NCBI GenBank assembly: GCA_964016885.1
Contig: OZ024745.1
Coordinates: 126,604,001-126,668,000 of the forward strand
Source of the DNA: Eledone cirrhosa
Taxonomy: Eukaryota
DNA length: 64,000 nucleotides
Reading direction: 5' to 3'
In this document: one piece after another, positions 494 to 63,565 of the stretch
Layout: the number at the start of each line of letters is the position of its first letter
How positions within the stretch are numbered: the first letter of the stretch is position 1
The notes under the pieces: model-generated
Database searches by the model: none
Seen by the model: the letters and a program-made list of their open reading frames with translations, nothing else
What the model was told of the DNA's origin: nothing
Program-made: the position numbers and the translations under genes

Positions 494-763
494 GTTATTG
501 TAAGTTCACCCAGGTAGGCACTCGATGTTTAGGTTCAAGTCAATGACGCGGTATAGAGTTAAACAGAGTGTAATATAATAATACAAGGATGATTTGTTAA
601 GCCTTCATTACGTTTAGTGATGCGCGTTTCACTATTGATCAGCTCAGGATTCGGTCTGTACCGATTTGGCCCGAATTTTGATTCCAGAATCGGGTCAGAT
701 CGATACAGATCAATAGCAAAACGCGCATCAATAAACGTAATGAAGGCTTAACAAATCGTCTTT

Positions 764-775
<12 letters not shown>
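494..775. mobile_element. Fold-back element (arms 575-640 / 708-773, one-sided tail 494-574) with the 3' half of an HHR; putative Penelope pLTR derivative
   Basis: Arms are reverse complements (ATAATAATACAAGGATGATTTGTTAAGCCTTCATTACG / CGTAATGAAGGCTTAACAAATCGTCTTTGTATTATTAT); homologous to 4140-4390; ends in (ATT)n(TA)n. Confidence 0.7.
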
Positions 776-2704: not shown

Positions 2705-2760
<56 letters not shown>

Positions 2761-2764
<4 letters not shown>

Positions 2765-2925
2765 ATACTTGGGGAGGGTCATATTTGTGTAATAATATTG
2801 CCAGAATTAATAACAGAACACATTCACTGTTTGGTTGGTTTTCGCTTCTGTGTCTTTTATATCGGTTAATTTAATTTATTCGGTCCTCAATGTTGCCATT
2901 GACTGACCAACGGTCAAAAATACAG
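2761..2925 (-). mobile_element. Single arm of the MTLPK fold-back family next to (TA)n
   Basis: Near-identical to 46651-46806. Confidence 0.8.
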
Positions 2926-3420: not shown

Positions 3421-3571
3421 GGGAAGGGCGTGGTGGAATTGGAAAAAAATGTCTTAAGATATGTATATATATATATATATGTTGGGGTGGTGGGGGGGTG
3501 GGGGGGTATATATATATGTATATATATTAATTTAAAATATTACCAAAAATAGACATTCGTGTGATCAAGTA

Positions 3572-3638
3572 TATTTTATTATACATATTTCAGAGGTACT
3601 GAGCTATCTTCAACAGTACGTCCTCATCAGATAAAATA
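3572..3638 (-). ncRNA. Type I hammerhead ribozyme motif
   Basis: Minus: TATTTTAT CTGATGA ggacGTACTG..CAGTACctct GAAA tatgta TA ATAAAATA; 8-bp stem I. Confidence 0.7.
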
Positions 3639-3784
3639 AGATGATGCATGACATACCCTGACTTAGTAGATGGTTAAGATTCAGTCATGGTAGTGAATAA
3701 GATATGACAAAACTCAATATTTATATATTCCAATCTATTGTAAAACTCATTCTTTGATTTATTCATTGAACCTTGTTTAACCTT

Positions 3785-3857
<73 letters not shown>

Positions 3858-5203: not shown

Positions 5204-5294
5204 TGTTAGTCATAGTAGCTAAACAGTTTCATATCAAATCACACTGTCTTGATAAATTGGATAATTACACTTAATTCGGCCTCTTGCATTCCAT

Positions 5295-5545
5295 CACTCG
5301 TGTACACGGCTCCCAGATACTTGAACCTCTCCAGCTGCTTCAGAGAAACTCCACTCACATATAGAGTGTACTTCACAGGCTTCAATTGCATGTCGGGGGC
5401 CACCTTCCGATGAGTTAAATAATACTATGTCGTCTGCAAATCCCAGCCGACTGATCCTACACTCGCCAATCCTGATACCACATTCAACCCGACTGCGCAC
5501 GTTAATCCTGTTCATGAAAATAACGAACAGGCGAAGTGATAGTTT
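5295..5545 (-). mobile_element. RTE-clade reverse transcriptase fragment
   Basis: LSLRLFVIFMNRI...ISRLGFADDIVL carries the RT catalytic F/YADD motif. Confidence 0.8.
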
Positions 5546-5856
5546 GACCATTCCGGAATCTGATACCCACATAGAATAGTTTCGATTTAGCACCATTTTT
5601 ACGAACACAAATGCTTGGGCATAAAAAAATATATAATATTTGACGGTAATAGACACAAGTATTCGTATATCAAGCAGGGAATTAGCAGCAATCGTTAGGG
5701 ACTTTGGATTGAAAATGTCGTGGTATTTGTTTCGGTTCACTGCGTTCTGAATTCAAATCCCGCCAAAGTGAACTTTGCTTTTCACCCTTTCGAGGTCGAT
5801 AAATATAGTACTAATCCAGTATTGGTATAGATTAATCCTCTATATATATTTCTTAC

Positions 5857-8831: not shown

Positions 8832-8836
<5 letters not shown>

Positions 8837-9003
8837 ATGCTTTGGGAGGGTCATGTTGCCAATAAGAAACACACGCACCAGTTGCTTTCACTTCAATTTA
8901 TTATAAATTTATTATAAATTAAATTTATAAATTTAGGAATAACAATATCGGTCTCAACACACGTTTTCAGATAAAGAATCTTGGTAAACAAATTCAGAAA
9001 CGA
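8832..9003. mobile_element. Internally deleted member of the MTLPK fold-back family between two (TA)n tracts
   Basis: Left part matches 47378-47450; right part matches the tail at 47835-47897. Confidence 0.75.
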
Positions 9004-14291: not shown

Positions 14292-14295
<4 letters not shown>

Positions 14296-14465
14296 ATTCG
14301 GGACCTCGCCGGCTGAGCTCCAGCCGTTTCGACAGATAGATCCGAAAATCGCATCTAGGTGTCGAAACGGGCGGAGCTCAGCCGTCGGTGTCCTGAATCT
14401 TTTCATAATACCCACTCTACTACCCCAAGTATCGAGTACTCTGGTGCGTTATGGTCCTCATGGCA
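14292..14465. mobile_element. Fold-back element with the 3' half of an HHR; relatives at 22386-22540 and 26937-27003
   Basis: Arms 14292-14333 / 14360-14402; GAAA CGGgcgGAGCTCagCCG TC; shared tail GGACCATAACGCACCAGAGTACTC. Confidence 0.65.
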
Positions 14466-16809: not shown

Positions 16810-17100
16810 TGTATTTCCGTAGAAAAGTTAAAGGAAAGAAGAGTGCTCTATGTATAGTACAGAGCTATCTAATTATATAATAAACAACACAATATAATTA
16901 TTCCATTACCCAAGGTTTCACGAAGTTAGACGATTCTAACAGAAACCTCTAGTTCGTTCATCAGAAGGAATCTTTATTTGGATGTAAGATATGAAGTTAA
17001 AATCTGTTGAACGAATTCAGACGCTTCTGTTAGAATCGTCTAACCTCGTGAAACCTTGGGTAATGGAATACTTCTATTGTGTTGTTTATTACATAATTAT
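16810..17100. mobile_element. Head-to-head fold-back element with two HHRs (16901-16970 minus; 17004-17068 plus)
   Basis: Minus: TTCCTT CTGATGA ACGAA..TTCGT GAAA CCTTGGG TA ATGGAA; the plus copy has CTGTTGA; flanked by microsatellites. Confidence 0.8.
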
Positions 17101-17126
17101 ATATATGTATATATATATATATATGT

Positions 17127-17971: not shown

Positions 17972-18575
17972 CCATTTATGTTATGTTGTTTACCAATGGA
18001 TAGAACTGATGATTCCCACTAGTAAATCATGATGCAATAAATTAAAGCACTCGCCGTTATACAGATCATCCATCGTAGGTGTGTTATCCCGTAGCTGGTG
18101 CAGGAACGGAGTTAAATATTTATTAAAAAGAACAGACAGAATGCCTTCCTGGAAACTTTCTTTAACATTTCAAATCCGCGAACACTCTATATATATTTCA
18201 ATGGTCCAGTTTCGTCATCCGATCACGACATAGACGATTTCATCAGGTGTAGATTGCAGAATTGGTTATATAAAATAACAGGGATACGGCGATCAAAAAC
18301 AGAGAATAGAAAATAGAGGCTATATTTGGTTCGAAGATGACTTGCCGTTACAATAACACCGAATTGGCAATCAATCCTCGAATCAAATATATCCTATATT
18401 TTCTATTCTCTGTTTGTGTTCGCGTAGCTCTGTTGTCTTATATAACTAATTCTGCAATCAACACCTGATGAAATCATTTAAGTCTTGCATCATGTTCAGA
18501 TGATGAAACTGGGCCATTGAAATATATATAGTGTTTTTGCGGATATAAAATTTTAAAGAAAGTTTCCAGGCCGAC
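17972..18575. mobile_element. Fold-back element with about 200-bp arms (18148-18347 / 18366-18570) and two divergent HHRs
   Basis: Plus 18461-18534: ACAC CTGATGA AAT..ATT GAAA TATATA TA GTGT; mirror copy on minus at 18182-18250; one-sided tail runs to (TA)n. Confidence 0.75.
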
Positions 18576-18675
18576 CTTCTGTTGTTTTACGTACATACAT
18601 ACATACATACATACATACATACATACATACATACATACATACATACATACATACATACATACATACATACATACA

Positions 18676-19177
18676 CGTCATCGCGGTACTATCTACCTAT
18701 GAGGTATGATGTAGTGGCCAAAACACTGTACAAAGCTATCAGTAGAAAAGATAGCCCCGATAATAAACACATTAAAAGCTACAGCAATGTGGAAGACATC
18801 CATGTACATAATATGAAAGAATACTGGTGGAATGTTTCAGTAAAAACCCGATATTATGATATAGGACAGGGAAAAGAAGGCGTGCACAGTAGTGGAAGTT
18901 AGCAGATGCCAATATAATATCAAAGATTAGCGAAAAGGAGAATATTTATGAAGAACTTATGAGAAATCTGCAGATACTCCACCCTGATTACACCTTCAGA
19001 TGTATGCCTGTGATTATTGGGGCACTGGGGTATGTTAGTAACTGCCTCAATACAAATCTTGAGAAGCTGGGCTTCACAGAAGCAGAAAGAACACGACTAA
19101 TTAGGAAATTACAAGTACAATTCATTAATGGTACAGTAAAAATATGTAAAACATTCCAAAAATTCTGCATCAAATAA
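18676..19177 (+). mobile_element. R4/Dong-clade non-LTR retrotransposon 3' fragment (RLE domain)
   Basis: [11 protein letters not shown] (RHD-like), YWWNVSVKT, then across frameshifts PDI..VVEVS, EKENIY..L, PVIIGALG; begins directly after (TACA)n. Confidence 0.8.
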
Positions 19178-23193: not shown

Positions 23194-24039
23194 CAGGCAT
23201 GCCAGACATGCGGCCCACGAGCCGCATGTGGCCCTTTACAAGCACACCTGCGGCCCGCACAAAGGTTTTTACAGCACGAGCATGTTTTATCTTCGTAAAA
23301 TTAGTTGTAATGTGCGCAATTAGTTGTAGTGTGTGGTCCTCAGACAACACATATGTGACCCATGTGGCCCTCAGACAACACATATGTGACCCATGTGGCC
23401 CTCAGACAACACATATGTGACCCATGTGAACCTCAGACAACACATATGTGACCCATGTGGCCCTCAGACAACACATATGTGACCCATGTGGCCCTCAGAC
23501 AACACATATGTGACCCATGTGAACCTCAGACAACACATATGTGACCCATGTGAACCTCAGATAACACATATGTGACCCATGTGACCCTCAGACAACACAT
23601 ATGTGACCCATGTGGTCCTCAGACAACACATATGTGACCTATGTGACCCTCAGACAACACATATGTGACCCATGTGGCCCTCAGACAACACATATGTGAC
23701 CCATGTGGCCCTCAGACAACACATATGTGACCCATGTGGCCCTCAGACAACACATATGTGACCCATGTGACCCTCAGACAACACATATGTGACCCATGTG
23801 GCCCTCAACAACACATATGTGACCCATGTGACCCTCGGACAACACATATGTGACCCATGTGAACCTCAGACAACACATATGTGACCCATGTGACCCTCAG
23901 ACAACACATATGTGACCCATGTGAACCTCAGACAACACATATGTGACCCTCAGACAACACATATGTGACCCATGTGGCCCTCAGACAACACATATGTGAC
24001 CCATGTGGCCTTTGGGGGTCTCTCAATTTGACATGTCTG
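23194..24039. mobile_element. hAT (Charlie-like) MITE containing a minisatellite
   Basis: Termini CAGGCATGCCAGA / TTGACATGTCTG with subterminal GCGGCCC motifs; TSD not clear. Confidence 0.65.
23333..24010. repeat. 31-bp minisatellite, about 22 units
   Basis: Unit CCTCAGACAACACATATGTGACCCATGTGGC; no unique spacers. Confidence 0.95.
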
Positions 24040-25072
24040 GCCCCTAAATTCAACGATGAAGTTGTTGTTAACTGATGAGCCTGTTCATTCTTTATTGGAT
24101 AAACATACATTCAACGCAGTAAAAAATGCTATGATTACTCTACTCTTTTTACAGTCTCGCGTTTACACAAACGATTATTTCTTTACTTGATAATGTTACC
24201 AAATATTTAAGCAGTAGTAACCTTGAAATGTTAAAGATCTCAGCTTAAAATTTTAAAATAATAAAATAACTAAACAAATGAATAAATAAATGAATTATAT
24301 AAATAAAACACTTGATATAAATTCTAAAAATGAACTCTGTAAGTCAGATGGTAATATGTAACTGAAAATGTTTCAGTTTCAGTTTAAATGTCAGTCTAGG
24401 AATCTTCATTGTTAATGACATTTTCGTCTATTTTAGGGAATAAAAAATATAAATAAATATAAAAATACACATATGCATGACACTTGATAACGTTGCTATA
24501 TGCAAAGCAATAACCTTGAAATCTAAGGGTTTTCGCGGCCCAACCACTGAAAATAGACAATATAAATTTAGTAAAGACAATTTGTAAGTAGCACGTTGAA
24601 AATATTTAAGAGTTTTCTCAATTGCGATATGTGAATTTGTAGATTTAGCAGAAATTGCAAACTAAATGTCTAACGTTCTTTCTGTCTCTAGGGACTTTAG
24701 CAAATTGTAAGCTATTAAATTTCAGTCCTCTATTCTCATAGCCAGATCTGTCAACGACCAAAACATATCAGGCATTGAATAACGTTAATAAACAAAGAAG
24801 ACTTTGTAGGCTTCGAACGTATCATATACCATTTAACTATATTTTTTATCAAGAATTGGTCGTATAGAACCCCCTCTATAATCTTGTGGAGAGATTATCC
24901 AGAAATTACATGGGACACATTGTTCTAATTTAAAAACTATCAGTCTGAAAGAGAGAACATTTTCAAGCTAGTCTTTAAAAATCTTCCAAGATTGGTGATG
25001 CCATATACTATCAAGGACCTACCAACTATAAACAAGATCTTCCAATCTATGGAGGTTACAAATGATTCAACA

Positions 25073-25316
25073 ACAGATCAAGTTTCCCACCACTCTACAC
25101 CAGATCAAACCTCCCACCACTCTACACCAGATCAAACCTCCGACCACTCTACACCAGATCAAACCTCCCACCACTCTACACCAGATCAAACCTCCCACCA
25201 CTCTACACCAGATCAAGCCTCCCACCACACTACACTAGATCAAACCTCCCACCACTCTACACCAGATAAAGTTCCCCATCACTCTTTACCAGATCAAACC
25301 TCCCACCACTCTACAC
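25073..25316. repeat. 27-bp minisatellite, about 9 units
   Basis: Unit CCAGATCAAACCTCCCACCACTCTACA. Confidence 0.95.
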
Positions 25317-25696
25317 TACTCACCGAATTACAAACACAGAAAAATCGGCCACTTAAGGTTACATAATTTCATATTTTCGTATCCACACAATACAACTTTG
25401 TATGTGGTGGTTGTCACAACAACCTTTACGCCAACGACCCTTCAAACAATACAAGTTATGTATAATTCTTCTGTCAACTATTTTTACATATGTTCAAAAT
25501 TTTTCCTTTCATAAGCTTCCAAATATGTTTCATTGTACTAATTTCAATGAAATCCGCTTCTATATTGTAAATGAGATTACATTCATTTACCAAACTTGCA
25601 GCTGGTTTAAGCGATAAGCTGTTTACCAACCTAGTCGTTAGATTAGGGTTGAATACCGGGACTTAAACGACCGCTTCCTTTTCGCGCTGGTCGCCG

Positions 25697-25906
25697 TTTA
25701 TATTTGATATATATATTATCCTTATCGAGCCCTCTTTGGGCTCGATAAGGATAAATATATATCAAATATATAAGAACCGTAGAGAAAATATTTATTAAAA
25801 TAATAGATTAAAGTTTAAGCAAAGAATCGCTGTTTAAGCAAAGATCCCGTTAAGGGTGAAAGCAGCGATTCTTTGCTTAAACTTTAATCTGTTATTTTAA
25901 TAAATA
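25697..25906. repeat. Two adjacent near-perfect hairpins (25697-25772; 25789-25906)
   Basis: TATCCTTATCGAGCCC/GGGCTCGATAAGGATA and AAAGTTTAAGCAAAGAATCGCTG/CAGCGATTCTTTGCTTAAACTTT. Confidence 0.85.
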
Positions 25907-27114: not shown

Positions 27115-27510
27115 TGTTTCAATATATTGCCTTTATTCTTGATGCGACGGATGGGACCTTTGGCACTTGAAAATGGCGTTCTGTTCGTGGGCTGGTCCGG
27201 CTGTCAATGTCAAAGTTTGCTGCTACCCCTTCCAGAATATTCCATAAGTGTGTCACTGCGTATCTCTCCCGTCTTCGCTCCAGGGAGTAAAGCTTTAGTT
27301 CTTCCAGCCTCTCCCAGAAGCTCATCTCTTTCATTGAGGCAATGCTCTTGGTGTAGCTTCGTTGGATTCTTTCAAGTTCTGTGGTTAGTTTGTCACGGTG
27401 GGGCAACCACAGCTGAGAGCAATAGTCCAGTCGGCTGCGGTCGAAAGCCATCCTGAGGACCAACATGGTTTCCGGATCCATTGTTCTGAAAGTCCTCAGA
27501 ATCCACAAAC
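27115..27510 (-). mobile_element. CR1-group LINE C-terminal fragment
   Basis: WILRTF...RSRLDYCSQLWLP...LERIQR...WERLEELKLYSLERRRER. Confidence 0.85.
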
Positions 27511-27643
27511 AAACAAACCGAGCATTATAATAAATGTTCGGTAAATCGAAACGTGCATATATATATGTGTGCATGTATGTATATATATATACATACTACT
27601 GTACGTCTGTATACATATATGTATGTGCGTATACATACATACT

Positions 27644-28803: not shown

Positions 28804-29193
28804 ACGAAAACTTGTTGACGAAGTAAATTCCACTGTTCTATCTTCCAAAAAACCAATAACTTGCAGGCCCCTGCAGAAACCTAGGGGAGATATTGTATGT
28901 TATATGTTATATATATTATGTATTATATGTGATGTGCTATATATAGTATCAACGCGATGGTCCAGGTTTGTCATATTTTCCTGAGTTCAGTTTTTTTCGT
29001 CGCTTTGGTCACTGCGGCTCGTCTATCGGTCGCTGTCTTCAATTTGCAAAGCTGTCTAAATGTAATGTTATTACTCTAAGGTAAAATACCTTATTGAGTG
29101 CTTAGCCGCACACCCCGATTGCATTCGTTAGCTTAGCTGCTGCCAGAGCTTCGTTTATGTTGTACTAAATTTTGTATATATATATATATTTAT

Positions 29194-29596
29194 ATGTATG
29201 GGTCTGAGACTTGGACACTGACCAAGAAACTCACTCAGATGGTGGATGGGTGCTACACGAGAATGTTGAGGATGGCTCTGAACATTAATCAGTATACACT
29301 GAGGATGAAAAACTCAGAGCTGTATGGGAGCATCCCAAAAGTCAGCTCAAAAGTGACACAGAGGAGACTGAGGTTAGCTGGACATGCTCACCGACATCCA
29401 GAGTTGACATTGCACTCAGTGCTCCTTTGGGAGCCCCTACATGGACACACTAGAAGTGGAAGACCAAGGTTAACGTATGTTGATGCCCTAAGGACAGACA
29501 CTGGTCTGTTGGAGACGCAGGACATGGCAGCGATAATGAGGGACAGAGACCGCTGAAGAGAACTCGTCCATGGATCTCGGGAATTTTACCCGCCTT

Positions 29597-34373: not shown

Positions 34374-34927
34374 CTAGCTAGCCCCGTGCCATCAAAAATA
34401 AACGACTAATTGTAATATCTATACATGATATAAAAAATAGATGTTGGTTGGTTGGTTCTTTCGCGCTCACTCACACGAGTGATACAAACGCACAGCTGTG
34501 ACGAATCTTCGAACGCTGGACATCTATAGATTCTCAACCCCACCTTCCTTAGTCATCACATATATGTATGTGTATTGGACACCCCTTCCGTCCTCAGTCG
34601 ACATAATTACCCCTTCCTTCCTCAGTCGACGTAATCACCCCTGCCTCCCTAAGTCGACATAATTACCCCTTCCTTCCTCAGTCGACGTAATCACCCCTTC
34701 CTTCCTCAGTCGACGTTATCACCCCTTCCTTCCTCAGTCGACATAATTACCCCTTCCTTCCTCAGTCGACGTAATCACCCCTTCCTTCCTCAGTCGACGT
34801 ACTCACCTCTTCCTTCCTCAGTCGACGTACTCACCCCTTCCTTCCTAAGTCGACATAATCACCCCTTCCTTCCTTAGTCATCTCTAATGTGCGACGGACA
34901 AATACACACAGCTATTATATTAGTAGA
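34374..34927 (-). mobile_element. Non-autonomous Helitron with internal 28-bp minisatellite (34581-34880)
   Basis: Minus starts TCTACTAATATAATAG and ends GCACGGGGCTAGCTAG|T; unit CCCCTTCCTTCCTCAGTCGACGTAATCA, about 10 copies. Confidence 0.7.
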
Positions 34928-41980: not shown

Positions 41981-43467
41981 AATGGTATACATTTGTCCCC
42001 AGTTATTCGCGGGGGTTACGTTCCTAGAACACCCGCGAAGGGTGAAAAACCGTGGTCCATAAAAATGCCTATAAACGTCAAAATATAACTTAAAATATAA
42101 TTTTTTTTTAAATGAGCGTCTTATGCGAAGGGGCGTCCAATAGGCCGGCAAATACAGTATATTGTTATGAATAATTTAGCGTTAAAAAAATATATATTGT
42201 CATGAAAAAAGACCCCCCCCCCCATGTCAAAAAAATCGCGGAAAATATTTACGATTCCGCGAATATGCGGTGATTTCCACGAAAAATTATAGTTTAGGTC
42301 AAAGCAAAATTCCGCGAATAACTGGGACCGCGAATGCTGGTGGTACGCTGTATATATATGTTTCATGGACACACCTCACACTAAGCCAACTAAAATATTC
42401 CTTCTTGTCATCAGAATCGATTAAATACAAATATTTACCTTACTTTCCCATGAATTCTGTGAAAGATCGAAAATCGAAAAATATAAAAAATAGTATTCAA
42501 ATATTGTTGGGAAAACTGAACTCTCTTTTACCAATCTTGCTATCGATTGTTTCAGTTAACATGAACTGAATACAGCTAACAAAAGCTAACTAAAGTACTA
42601 ACAAAATATAGATTTCTTTACTGACTCTGACAAATATTAATTTGTTTGTTGAACCAAACATTGAACTCATGCAATCCAATCTTACTTTAGAGTCTACAGC
42701 AAGATAGAATTGATGAATGCAATAGGAAACAATAGTCTGCAGTGTAGACTATGGTTTCCTATTGCATTCATCAAGTCCGCATGAAGTGTCGAATTTATTA
42801 CGAAATGTGGACTTAAAATTAACCGGTACATCGTCGGTTACGATGACGAGTGTTCCAGTTGATACAATCAACGGAACAGTCTGCTGGTGAAATTAACGTG
42901 CAAATGGCTGAGAATTCTACAGACACGTGTACCCATTACGTAGTTCTCAGGGAGATTCAGTGTGACACAGAACATGACAAGGCTGGTCCTTTGAATTACA
43001 GGTGTATATCATCTTTGCCAGCTAAGTGGACTGGAATAAGGTGAAATAAATTGTCTTGCTCGAGGACACAACGCGCCACCGAGAATCGAACTCACGACTT
43101 TATGGTCATGAGCCGAATACTCTAACCAATAAGCCACGCGCCTTCACTAAAGTTGACTACACACTTGTTAATTTGACAATACTTCCGTTGTTTGGAACAA
43201 TCAACTTTTATCACCATGTGATATCTGCTTAGGCCAAGTTGAACTTTGTCTTTAAAAGTTAATTGTTTTCTCCACGGATGCCACCATGTTTTGGGACGTT
43301 GATAAAAATATGAACAAGTTGTTGCCTGGAAACAACAGTATGGTCTCGGCTAGAAAGCCTTGTGAGGCTATCGACAAGAATTATAGAAAAAAAACCCAGG
43401 AAAGTGTTAAAAAGCAACAAAAGTGAACCTAGCCGGATTTAAACTGAACAAACAAGAGAAACTGAAG

Positions 43468-46382: not shown

Positions 46383-46435
<53 letters not shown>

Positions 46436-46598
46436 ACTGGAAGGTAATATCCGTAGTGGTAGAGCACTCAGTCCATGGGACGAGTTAGGTAGAAGTGGTT
46501 ACACAACAGTTAGTTCCCCATACCGAGAACAATTATCTGAGGATCTAATAAGGTGAAACAATTGTTCTCGGTATGGTAAACTAACTGTTGTGTTACCA

Positions 46599-46601
<3 letters not shown>
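46436..46601. mobile_element. Fold-back element (arms about 46493-46534 / 46560-46601) with HHR core at 46537-46566
   Basis: CTGAGGA tctaataaggt GAAA CAATTG TT; stem I 5' strand lost at the inversion junction; between (GA)n and (TA)n. Confidence 0.65.
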
Positions 46602-46650
<49 letters not shown>

Positions 46651-46654
<4 letters not shown>

Positions 46655-47020
46655 TACTTGGGGAGGGTCATATTTGTGTAATATTGCCAGAATTAATAAC
46701 CGAACACACTCACTGTTTGGTTGGTTTTCGCTTCTCGCTTCTGTGTCTTTTATATCGGTAATCTAATATACTCGGTCCTCAATGTTGCCATTGACTGACC
46801 GGCGGTCAAAAATAATACCGCCGGTCAGTCAATGGCAACATTGAGGACCGAGTATATTAGATTACCGATATAAAAGACACAGAAGCGAAAACCAACCAAA
46901 CAGTGAGTGAGTTCTGTTATTAATTCTGGCAATATTACACAAATATGACCCTCCCCAAGTATAACAATATTTGTTTCGACACACGATTTCATATAAAAAT
47001 CCTCGCAAAACTAATTCATA
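46651..47020. mobile_element. Near-perfect fold-back element (arms 46651-46806 / 46817-46965) with coding-like tail
   Basis: Arms nearly identical apart from a 7-nt duplication; ATG at 46945 reads MTLPKYNNICFDTRFHIKILAKLIH. Confidence 0.85.
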
Positions 47021-47194
47021 TATATATATATGAAGTATTTCCATATGAAAGGTAAAGGAAAAGAGAGTGCTCTATATAGGATACAGAGCTTTTTAGTTAT
47101 GTATACATTATGGCCGATATTTTATTTCAGCCTCGCTTTCAATTGTCCTAGACTCTGTTTTGAAATCCATATCTCACTTCCATTTTAAATAAAA

Positions 47195-47267
47195 TTTCAT
47201 TCAGACGATTGAAGTCAGACGACTGTGCCAGGGGCGTCTGTCTTCGTGAAACCTTTGGTAAATGAAA
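47195..47267 (+). ncRNA. Type I HHR motif, family of 16810-17100
   Basis: TTTCATT CAGACGA tTGAAGtCAGACG..CGTCTGtCTTCGt GAAA CC ttt GG TA AATGAAA; perfect 7-bp stem I, U4A variant. Confidence 0.7.
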
Positions 47268-47377
47268 TAATTATCTTATGTTGTTTATTACATAACTATA
47301 TATATATATATATGTGTGTGTGTGTGCGTGTGTGTGTGTGTGTGTTGTGTGTGTGTGTGTGTGTGTGTGTATTTTAT

Positions 47378-47900
47378 TATACTTTGGGAGGGTCATACTG
47401 CCAATAAAAACACACGCACCTGTTGGTTTTCACTTCAATGTATTATAAATATCCGGTTGGTTGGTTGGTTCAATAACTGGAAGATTGTTTATATATTGTC
47501 AAAGCTCTTTCGTTACACATTCTGTGACCTCCTCAGTGACTGGGTTTTTATTTTGTGTCTCTCATTTGTTCTGTCCCACACCATCTGGTTTTTGTGTATG
47601 TTGTCAACATACAACACACAAAAACCAGATGGTGTGGGACAGAACAAAAGAGAGACACAAAATAAAAACCCAGTCACTGAGGAGGTCACAGAATGTGTAA
47701 CAAAAGAGCTTTGACAATATATAAACAATCTTCCAGTTATTGAACCAACCAACCAACCGGATATTTATAATAAATTGAAGTGAAAACCAACAGGTGCGTG
47801 TGTTTTTATTGGCAGCATGACCCTCCCAAAGTTTAACAATATTGGTTTCAACGGATGTTTTCAGATAAGAAATCTTGCAAAACAAATTAGAAAACGAAGT
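47378..47900. mobile_element. Near-perfect fold-back element with about 220-bp arms and coding-like tail
   Basis: Arms about 47378-47603 / 47605-47832; ATG at 47817 reads [27 protein letters not shown]. Confidence 0.85.
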
Positions 47901-47901
47901 T

Positions 47902-47942
<41 letters not shown>

Positions 47943-59381: not shown

Positions 59382-60209
59382 TGAGGGTGCTTCCAAAAAT
59401 TCATGGAAAAAGTACATAACTAAAAATCTTATGCAGGGATTTTGATCTCAATGCAGCTGTACGTTCTTGTACTAATGTGTTATAACATGCTGTACTAACG
59501 TGTCATAACATGTTGTACTAACGTGTTATAACATGTTGTACTAACGTGTTATAACATGTTGTACTAACGTGTTATAACATGTTGTACTAACATGTTATAA
59601 CATGTTGTACTAACGTGTTATAACATCATGTACTAACGTGTTATAACATGTTGTACTAACGTGTTATAACATGTTGTACTAACGTGTTATAACATGTTGT
59701 ACTAATGTGTTATAACATGTTGTACTAACGTGTTATAACATGTTGTACTAACGTGTTACAACATGTTCTGATATGAACCATTAAATGCATGTTGCAATGT
59801 GGTGCCACCAGCCGGAAGCCAGCACCTGATTGAGCAACATGGCCTCCATCAAAACATCAAATTCATGGTGAAGCTAGGGTGGCAGAGCAGCCAAATCATT
59901 GACGCACTGGAGCAAGTTTATGGGGACAGTTCCCCAAAGAAATAGACAACCTAGAAATGGATAAGTCGTGTTAGAAGTGGAAGAGATGAGCTTGAAGATG
60001 ATCCTCAGTTGAAGATGTAAAAAAATAAGCTGCTTTGACTTACTTTAAATCACATGGCCCCCAGTTTGACACAGATGAGCTTAAGGACTGGTATCAATGC
60101 TTGCAGAAGTGTATTGACGTAGATGGGGTATAAGTAGAACAATAAACATCATAACTTAAACCGTTTTTTCCAACTGTCCTTTTTCCATGAACTTTTTGAA
60201 GCCCCCTCG
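59382..60209 (+). mobile_element. Hsmar2-like mariner internal-deletion derivative
   Basis: TIRs TGAGGGTGCTTCCAAAAATTCATGGAAAA / TTTTCCATGAACTTTTTGAAGCCCCCTCG with TA flanks; IKFMVKLGW...IIDALEQVYGDSSPK N-terminus and WYQCLQKCIDVDGV*VE C-terminus. Confidence 0.9.
59468..59768. repeat. 23-bp minisatellite, about 13 units, inside the mariner
   Basis: Unit AACATGTTGTACTAACGTGTTAT. Confidence 0.95.
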
Positions 60210-63424: not shown

Positions 63425-63565
63425 ATATTCTTTTTATTGCAGCTAAATAGTGAGTCTTGTGGCTCTGGATTTTCGCCTGTTTATCATAGATCTGATGACC
63501 CTGTGATAAACAGGCAACACTCCACAATAACAAGAGTCATTATTTAGCCTCAATAAAATGAATAT
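63425..63565. mobile_element. Diverged fold-back element with a split HHR core
   Basis: Plus CTGATGA cCCTGT gataa ACAGGc AACA (63492-63519); the opposite arm keeps ACAGGC GAAA. Confidence 0.55.

What the first reader, a model, noticed from the sequence alone, without database searches (positions are those of the whole stretch)
46945..47900. Tails of three fold-back copies keep a conserved reading frame (MTLPK family)
The tails translate without stops or indels as MTLPKYNNICFDTRFHIKILAKLIH (46945), [27 protein letters not shown] (47817) and NNIGLNTRFQIKNLGKQIQKR (8941). Several differences are synonymous (CCC/CCA, ATT/ATC, CTC/CTT, AAA/AAG). The inverted arm stops near the same codon each time. 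Inference: this is the N-terminus of the autonomous parent's ORF, as expected when a pLTR tail runs into the ORF start, and so a handle for finding the mobilising enzyme.
Basis: partly seen in the sequence, partly recalled or inferred. Interest (0 to 1): 0.7.

Follow-up and report, generated by a model that had tools for sequence, protein, structure and literature searches.

The report
Penelope-like retroelement ends with coding tail
These short fold-back repeats sitting in TA microsatellites carry a hammerhead-ribozyme motif and a one-sided tail, so they are likely stubs of a very common Penelope-like retrotransposon whose tail likely holds the first ~24 codons of its protein; this layout is already described, and the parent gene was not found.

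Summary
The three tails align without gaps over 54 nt, and the ATG-led frame is the only one of six open in all three. Support for coding constraint is modest: synonymous excess is significant only for copy A vs C (6 of 13 differences, P=0.013), not A-B or B-C. Copy C lacks the first six codons on its tail side, and a fourth copy (2760-2922) was missed. The class assignment rests on other evidence. Both arms of copy B carry a minimal type I hammerhead motif 140 nt upstream of the ATG, whose core and stem II are intact in most reads. Reads show a very abundant family ending at two points, 47842 and 47888, so the ~46-nt tail is optional. Copies are head-to-head and sit in dinucleotide microsatellites. 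That matches Penelope-like pLTR-plus-tail anatomy; in rotifer Pen2a, pLTR plus tail holds the first 22 aa of the ORF (PMC3846280). No continuation into RT or GIY-YIG was found, so 'ORF start' stays inferred (~0.7). Verdict: an ordinary, probably new family of a known retroelement class.

The parts
46649..46806 (-). Copy A, inverted 5'-truncated arm; short 3' end abuts (TA)n
   Evidence: self-BLAST 46651-46965 at 92%; arm alignment
46807..46967 (+). Copy A, direct arm (pLTR part) with the ATG at 46945
46968..47022 (+). Copy A tail, unpaired, running into (TA)n; with the arm it gives a 25-codon open frame
47371..47606 (-). Copy B, inverted arm; carries the hammerhead core with an intact GAAA box (core starts at 47536 on the minus strand); abuts (TG)n
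47607..47842 (+). Copy B, direct arm (pLTR part)
   Evidence: palindrome 47371-47842 at 95%
47673..47715 (+). Minimal type I hammerhead motif: 4-bp stem I, CUGANGA box at 47677, unpaired G, stem II, GAAA box (mutated in this arm), 1-bp stem III with a 4-nt loop
   Evidence: descriptor scan, drawn structure; most read depth has the pairing letter at 47699 (96-99%) and the intact box at 47702 (87-93%); the free N7 position 47681 varies
47817..47897 (+). ATG-led open frame of 27 codons; inferred ORF start. Codons 1-9 lie in the arm, the rest in the tail
   Evidence: inference from PMC3846280 and PMC11167929
47843..47897 (+). Copy B tail; the main family end is 47888 (46 nt), and B and C run about 9 nt further
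   Evidence: 1778 of 2522 molecules end at 47888 in run X11; loose ends there agree only 0.36
8832..9003 (.). Copy C: inverted arm (8832 to about 8915, minus strand), AT-rich junction, then a direct fragment from codon 7 through the tail (8941-9003, plus strand); (TA)n on both sides
2760..2922 (-). Copy D: single 5'-truncated arm of the A subfamily, short end at (TA)n, no tail

Best explanation
These four TA/TG-microsatellite-bound repeats are likely 5'-truncated insertions of a hammerhead-bearing Penelope-like retrotransposon (PLE), and their one-sided tail is likely the first ~24 codons of the parent's single ORF, which was not found. Shown: head-to-head arms, an unpaired tail on one arm only, a minimal hammerhead motif 140 nt before an ATG in copy B, two fixed 3' ends about 46 nt apart, high abundance and microsatellite flanks. 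Inferred from the Poseidon PAc model (PMC11167929): the parent's GIY-YIG endonuclease would nick AT-rich DNA, and its RT would start cDNA at one of two sites inside the beginning of its own ORF. The outer start gives arm plus tail; the inner start gives the short end. Synthesis would stop early, after 60-290 nt. A second, inverted copy would be made from the same template in the same event, giving the fold-back. The frame would be conserved only because active parents were under selection; the copies themselves decay neutrally and encode nothing.
For: Hammerhead: the left arm of B is 1 of 3 window hits of a relaxed descriptor, against a mean of 0.13 hits in 30 Markov controls (the descriptor was written after I saw the motif). 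Reads carry the stem II pairing letter and the GAAA box in 87-99% of depth, and vary at the free N7 position. Its traits (short helix I, long helix II, unpaired base before helix II, pairs on opposite strands 100-700 bp apart) are those reported for PLE min-HHRs (PMC4209133, parts 1-2 of 4 read). Two ends: 47842 in contigs and 47888 in raw reads, 1778 of 2522 molecules. Abundance: 52,346 of 12,467,656 RAD reads laid. One template: both arms of B share letters at 47699 and 47708 that are the minority in reads. Coding: one frame of six is open in all three copies; A-C has 6 of 13 synonymous differences, P=0.013. All 11 indel rows in the read table lie at 47654-47805, upstream of the ATG, none at 47817-47888 (P about 0.04 if uniform). 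The A-B alignment is gapped up to the ATG and gap-free after it. B's four non-synonymous changes at 47833, 47853, 47854 and 47856 are private: 78-99% of depth has the other letter. Precedent: pLTR holds 12 aa and pLTR plus tail 22 aa of the ORF in Pen2a_Av (PMC3846280, passages).
Against: No ORF continuation, RT or GIY-YIG was found. Among the 24 of 1172 loose-end rows shown, none is a common continuation past the tail. A-B and B-C show no synonymous excess. A neighbouring family's tail is equally gap-free without an open sense frame. Rfam found no hammerhead at gathering score or by E-value. The hammerhead is not seen in A, C or D, whose arms are shorter. The tail (46-55 nt) is longer than the usual 30-40 nt.
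Confidence: 0.72

Rival explanations
1. It is a PLE pLTR plus tail, but the tail is non-coding (5' UTR or the 5' UTR intron that spans the pLTR boundary). It is conserved as an RNA or DNA recognition site, and the ATG frame is incidental.
For: Penelope and Chlamys-3 have a 5' UTR intron at this place (PMC8557442, passages). Splice-donor-like GTGAGT/GTGCGT hexamers lie upstream of the ATG in both subfamilies. Two of three pairs show no synonymous excess. The neighbouring family's tail is gap-free without an open sense frame.
Against: Indels between subfamilies stop at the ATG. Only this frame is open in all three copies. A-C synonymous excess P=0.013. No stable shared hairpin in the tails: folds of -4.6 to -8.4 kcal/mol that differ between copies.
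Confidence: 0.17
2. A non-autonomous, retrozyme- or SINE-like family that consists only of the pLTR and tail, copied in trans by some PLE. The ORF stub is a relic, and no long parent of this family survives.
For: Very high abundance with no common continuation seen past the tail. No protein hit. Animal retrozymes are proposed to be pLTR derivatives of PLEs (bioRxiv 10.64898/2026.07.22.740005, part 1 of 5 read).
Against: Retrozymes are head-to-tail tandems, whereas these copies are head-to-head with variable 5' ends. Strong 5' truncation alone explains why long copies are rare. Only 24 of 1172 loose-end rows were shown. This reading partly overlaps the best explanation.
Confidence: 0.08
3. A MITE or other DNA transposon with long terminal inverted repeats that targets TA.
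For: Long inverted repeats and TA flanks.
Against: The ends are asymmetric (tail on one side only). The arms meet at a variable centre with no spacer. Single-arm copies exist (D). A conserved hammerhead core lies inside the arm.
Confidence: 0.03

Closest known systems
Canonical endonuclease-bearing Penelope-like elements (Penelope/Poseidon, Neptune, Nematis, Hydra); e.g. Pen2a_Av of Adineta vaga (PMC3846280)
   Same: Inverted 5'-truncated pLTR next to a direct one; optional tail on one end; pLTR plus tail covering the first ~22-24 codons; palindromic junction; hammerhead in the pLTR (PMC4209133)
   Different: No ORF body seen here; tail 46-55 nt rather than 31 nt; insertion in microsatellites hides any target duplication; very high rather than low copy number; clade not assignable
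Poseidon PAc of Anolis carolinensis (PMC11167929)
   Same: The tail equals the stretch between two RT start sites inside the ORF; AT-rich targets; hammerhead near the ORF start
   Different: In PAc the RT starts lie 111-118 nt into the ORF and the ORF begins inside the ribozyme. Here the ends lie 26 and 72 nt after the ATG, and the ribozyme core starts 140 nt upstream
Naiad PLEs (PMC8557442)
   Same: (TA)n targets, inverted truncated copies, tails, very high copy number in invertebrates
   Different: Naiads lack a canonical hammerhead, while this family has a full core. Three tail peptide motifs and five DNA motifs gave no relevant match in the paper's supplement
Non-LTR retrozymes (bioRxiv 10.64898/2026.07.22.740005)
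   Same: Short, non-coding, type I hammerhead, PLE-related
   Different: Retrozymes are head-to-tail tandems; these copies are head-to-head, 5'-truncated and tailed

Membership tests
Canonical EN+ Penelope-like element | Single ORF with telomerase-like RT and C-terminal GIY-YIG endonuclease | tested here: inconclusive
   No long copy in the window and no genome held; searches blank
Canonical EN+ Penelope-like element | pLTR with an adjacent inverted 5'-truncated copy (head-to-head) | tested here: met
   A 46651-46965 at 92%, B 47371-47842 at 95%, C partial
Canonical EN+ Penelope-like element | Optional 3' tail of about 30-40 nt at one end only | tested here: met
   Ends at 47842 and 47888 in reads and contigs; tail of 46-55 nt on one arm of A, B and C, absent in D; somewhat longer than typical
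Canonical EN+ Penelope-like element | Type I (minimal) hammerhead motif in the pLTR | tested here: met
   Copy B, both arms; core and stem II intact in 87-99% of read depth; not detected by Rfam; not seen in the shorter arms of A, C, D; cleavage untested
Canonical EN+ Penelope-like element | pLTR and tail overlap the first codons of the ORF | tested here: inconclusive
   ATG-led frame open in 3 of 3 tails; synonymous excess in 1 of 3 pairs; no continuation seen
Canonical EN+ Penelope-like element | Insertion into AT-rich or microsatellite DNA | tested here: met
   4 of 4 copies abut (TA)n or (TG)n
Canonical EN+ Penelope-like element | Target-site duplication | not testable with these tools
   Flanks are microsatellites
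Naiad | Lack of a canonical hammerhead motif | tested here: not met
   Full core present in B
Naiad | N-terminal GIY-YIG domain | not testable with these tools
   Only 24-27 codons available
MITE / TIR DNA transposon | Symmetric terminal inverted repeats at both ends around a spacer | tested here: not met
   One-sided tail, variable centre, single-arm copy D
Non-LTR retrozyme | Head-to-tail tandem units, each with a type I hammerhead | tested here: not met
   Arms are head-to-head; no tandem of the unit in the window

The most novel reading that the evidence does not exclude
The family now spreads as a short, ORF-less RNA that runs from about the hammerhead to the internal RT start: a head-to-head, microsatellite-homing PLE parasite, abundant enough to draw 0.4% of reads in one library. 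The shared 5' end of copies A and D would then be a genomic record of a fixed RNA-processing point, possibly ribozyme cleavage, which was not seen in Anolis RNA-seq reads (PMC11167929).
Probability: 0.12. Interest if true: 0.5.

Novelty: new member of a known kind. Interest (0 to 1): 0.2.

Why it matters
Little beyond annotation. A tail that runs into the ORF start is a described PLE trait. The family is very abundant, and its fold-back form invites mislabelling as a MITE or a miRNA hairpin: most of the 39 Rfam E-value hits over copy B are miRNA models. Thousands of copies with two sharp 3' ends would allow the internal RT-start model to be tested in another animal by counting alone. I could not check Repbase or Dfam, so the family may already be catalogued.

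Tried and rejected
No whole genome is held, so the proposed TBLASTN could not be run. Pfam on the 3 tail peptides: 0 families. Homologue search with the three-row tail alignment, 71-2000 aa: 12 candidates, none at E<=10. Same search with copy B's 40-aa frame, 22-70 aa: no candidate. ESM Atlas: best score 0.77, no lead. A word-free profile search against cluster representatives was not run, so distant relatives remain untested. Exact DNA motifs from the tail and the hammerhead: 0 matches in metagenome contigs, prokaryote genomes and viral contigs, as expected for animal DNA. Pfam on the longest 150 of 241 complexity-filtered window ORFs: no RT or GIY-YIG, only sub-threshold hits. This is a weak negative, since ORFs that look like LINE fragments to me (recalled motifs) were also missed. 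Rfam: nothing at gathering score; E-value mode gave mainly hairpin-driven miRNA models, rejected. My strict hammerhead scan missed B because of a stem II mismatch; the relaxed scan allowing one GAAA mismatch is not specific (6 hits vs mean 2.9). One search had copy C one codon out of register; its A-C and B-C rows were discarded and redone. No RNA holder listed. Earlier scan notes: nothing by place, sequence or words. Five literature searches listed no paper on this family by title or abstract start. The O. vulgaris repeat paper (PMC13282606; part 1 of 3 and passages read; its supplement was listed, not read) gives only class totals in what I read. The host species was not determined; cephalopod was only a guess from composition.

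Full report
Setting. The window is AT-rich (25-42% GC per 2 kb) and dense in microsatellites, as in a large animal genome. No whole genome is held, and the species was not determined.

Anatomy. A masked self-BLAST and a motif search (6 matches, 0 in 100 shuffles) give four copies. A is a 315-nt palindrome (46651-46965, 92%) plus a tail to about 47022. B is a 472-nt palindrome (47371-47842, 95%) plus a tail to 47897. C (8832-9003) has an inverted arm, an AT-rich junction and a direct fragment that starts at codon 7. All four abut (TA)n or (TG)n. A/D and B/C form two subfamilies. Their alignment has many gaps upstream of the ATG and none after it. The arms point outwards (head-to-head) and their inner, 5' ends vary, which is the pattern of 5'-truncated retrocopies.

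The frame. Over the 54 nt shared by A, B and C the copies are 76-83% identical without gaps, and the ATG-led frame is the only one of six that is open in all three. Synonymous differences are 3 of 12 for A-B (permutation P=0.51), 6 of 13 for A-C (P=0.013) and 3 of 9 for B-C (P=0.31) (one search had C out of register and its C rows were discarded). Reads explain part of the weak signal. Four non-synonymous letters of B (47833, 47853, 47854, 47856) are private to this copy, since 78-99% of depth in runs X1, X4 and X11 carries the other letter. Of the four listed sites within 47817-47887 that differ strongly between runs (47858, 47869, 47870, 47879), three are third codon positions; but only 40 of 161 variant rows were shown. 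All 11 indel rows lie at 47654-47805, none in 47817-47888 (P about 0.04 if uniform). Against this, a shuffled 69-nt stretch is stop-free 16-24% of the time. Also, a second fold-back family in the window has a 69-nt tail that is gap-free at 80% identity between two copies, with no sense frame open in both. Coding origin is therefore likely but not shown.

Two 3' ends. I laid 47612-47915 on four of the 13 runs listed. Contigs laid: 11,840 in X1, 10,404 in X4 and 10 in X8. In X11, 52,346 of 12,467,656 RAD reads were laid (0.42%, not a genome share). In X1 and X4, 158 and 139 loose ends begin at 47842 with ATAT. In X11, 1778 of 2522 molecules end at 47888, and the loose ends there agree only 0.36, so the flanks are mixed. 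The family thus has a short end 26 nt after the ATG and a long end 72 nt after it; B and C run about 9 nt further. No common continuation appears among the 24 of 1172 loose-end rows shown. A further pile of ends at 47765 in X11 (4746 of 14,249) is unexplained and may be a library effect or a related family.

Hammerhead. B's arms contain, 140 nt before the ATG, a 4-bp stem I, a CUGANGA box, one unpaired G, stem II, a GAAA box, a 1-bp stem III with a 4-nt loop, and a UH site. The left arm has the intact box; the right arm has one change. In reads, the stem II pairing letter at 47699 is present in 96-99% of depth and the intact box at 47702 in 87-93%, while the free N7 position (47681) varies. 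A relaxed descriptor, written after I saw the motif, gives 3 window hits against a mean of 0.13 in 30 controls. Rfam does not detect it. Cervera and de la Pena (PMC4209133; parts 1-2 of 4 read) report such minimal hammerheads in PLE pLTRs: short helix I, long helix II, an unpaired base before helix II, and pairs on opposite strands 100-700 bp apart. The loop-3 sequence here is not a clean palindrome, unlike their consensus. Cleavage is untested.

One template. B's two arms share the minority letters at 47699 and 47708, and A's arms differ by 3 substitutions and one 7-nt duplication. Both arms were therefore probably copied from one donor in one event; later conversion between arms cannot be excluded.

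Comparison with known elements. Craig et al. (PMC8557442; passages, Results part 1 of 4, two supplement searches) describe partial tandems, an adjacent inverted truncated copy, a 30-40 bp tail on one end and (TA)n targets, and note that Naiads lack canonical hammerheads. The A. vaga Penelope paper (PMC3846280; passages) states that the pLTR of Pen2a includes the first 12 aa of the ORF, and 22 aa with the tail. Frangieh et al. (PMC11167929; parts 1-2 of 4) show in vitro that the tail is the stretch between two RT start sites inside the ORF, and that AT-rich DNA is cut. The present family matches on layout, tail, hammerhead and target. The defining RT and GIY-YIG ORF could not be tested. So it works like, and probably is, a canonical PLE; it is not a Naiad, a MITE or a tandem retrozyme. 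The clade cannot be assigned.

Search for the parent. All searches were blank: Pfam, homologue searches, ESM Atlas, DNA motif scans and the Naiad/Hydra supplement. These collections are mostly prokaryotic or gene-call based and the query has fewer than 30 informative residues, so the blanks say little. A word-free profile search was not run, and Repbase and Dfam were not available. Earlier scan notes had nothing.

Mechanism. Shown: structure, ends, motif, abundance and flanks. Inferred by analogy with PAc: nicking of TA-rich DNA by the parent's endonuclease; cDNA initiation at either of two sites within the first 26-72 nt of the ORF; early termination; a second, inverted copy from the same template. 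The conserved frame would reflect past selection on active parents, not a function of these copies.

Verdict. A real feature, correctly read in outline, but a described property of PLEs: new member of a known kind, interest 0.2. Confidence that these are PLE ends is about 0.9; that the tail is the ORF start, about 0.7.

Noticed in passing
window 47035-47295 and 16811-17103: A second fold-back-plus-tail family, one copy lying between A and B. The 16.8 kb copy has a type I hammerhead core with a GUA site on the minus strand. Its 69-nt tail is pyrimidine-rich with a small inverted repeat and no sense frame open in both copies.
   Followed up: partly
window 46435-46600: A third fold-back (46494-46600) with a 59-nt tail, between (GA)n and the (TA)n that it shares with copy A; hammerhead-like core with a palindromic AATT loop. 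Four PLE-like stubs thus sit in a row between 46.4 and 47.9 kb.
   Followed up: partly
window 3528-3787 (minus strand, core at 3630): Microsatellite-bounded 260-nt element with an intact type I hammerhead (8-bp stem I): the only hit of the strict scan, against 1 hit in 20 shuffled windows in total; an ATG follows about 35 nt downstream, close to the element end.
   Followed up: partly
window 18131-18586: 456-nt fold-back at 79% with CTGATGA...GAAA boxes on both arms, next to a (TACA)n repeat.
   Followed up: no
window 584-764, 14293-14401, 25699-25770, 25797-25898, 42707-42777, 63425-63565: Further isolated fold-backs; four of these six have a microsatellite within 15 nt on one side. No hammerhead boxes found by the simple scan.
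   Followed up: no
window about 46811-46821 and 2912-2922: The inverted arm of A and the single arm of D stop at the same 5' point in element orientation; either a fixed RNA end or common descent.
   Followed up: partly
window 47765 (run X11): 4746 of 14,249 molecules leave the reference here with mixed loose ends, and depth falls about sevenfold; library effect or a related family that shares only the hammerhead half.
   Followed up: no
window 5294-5752 (-), 18549-18902 (+), 27119-27595 (-), 29137-29556 (+): Stop-to-stop frames that look like fragments of RTE, R4/Dong and CR1-type LINE proteins (recalled motifs; no Pfam hit).
   Followed up: no
window 23239-24054, 25040-25343, 34524-34915, 59419-59836: Minisatellite arrays with 31-, 27-, 28- and 23-nt units.
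   Followed up: no
window 35815 (+): Isolated hit of the relaxed hammerhead descriptor with no stem III; possibly chance.
   Followed up: no
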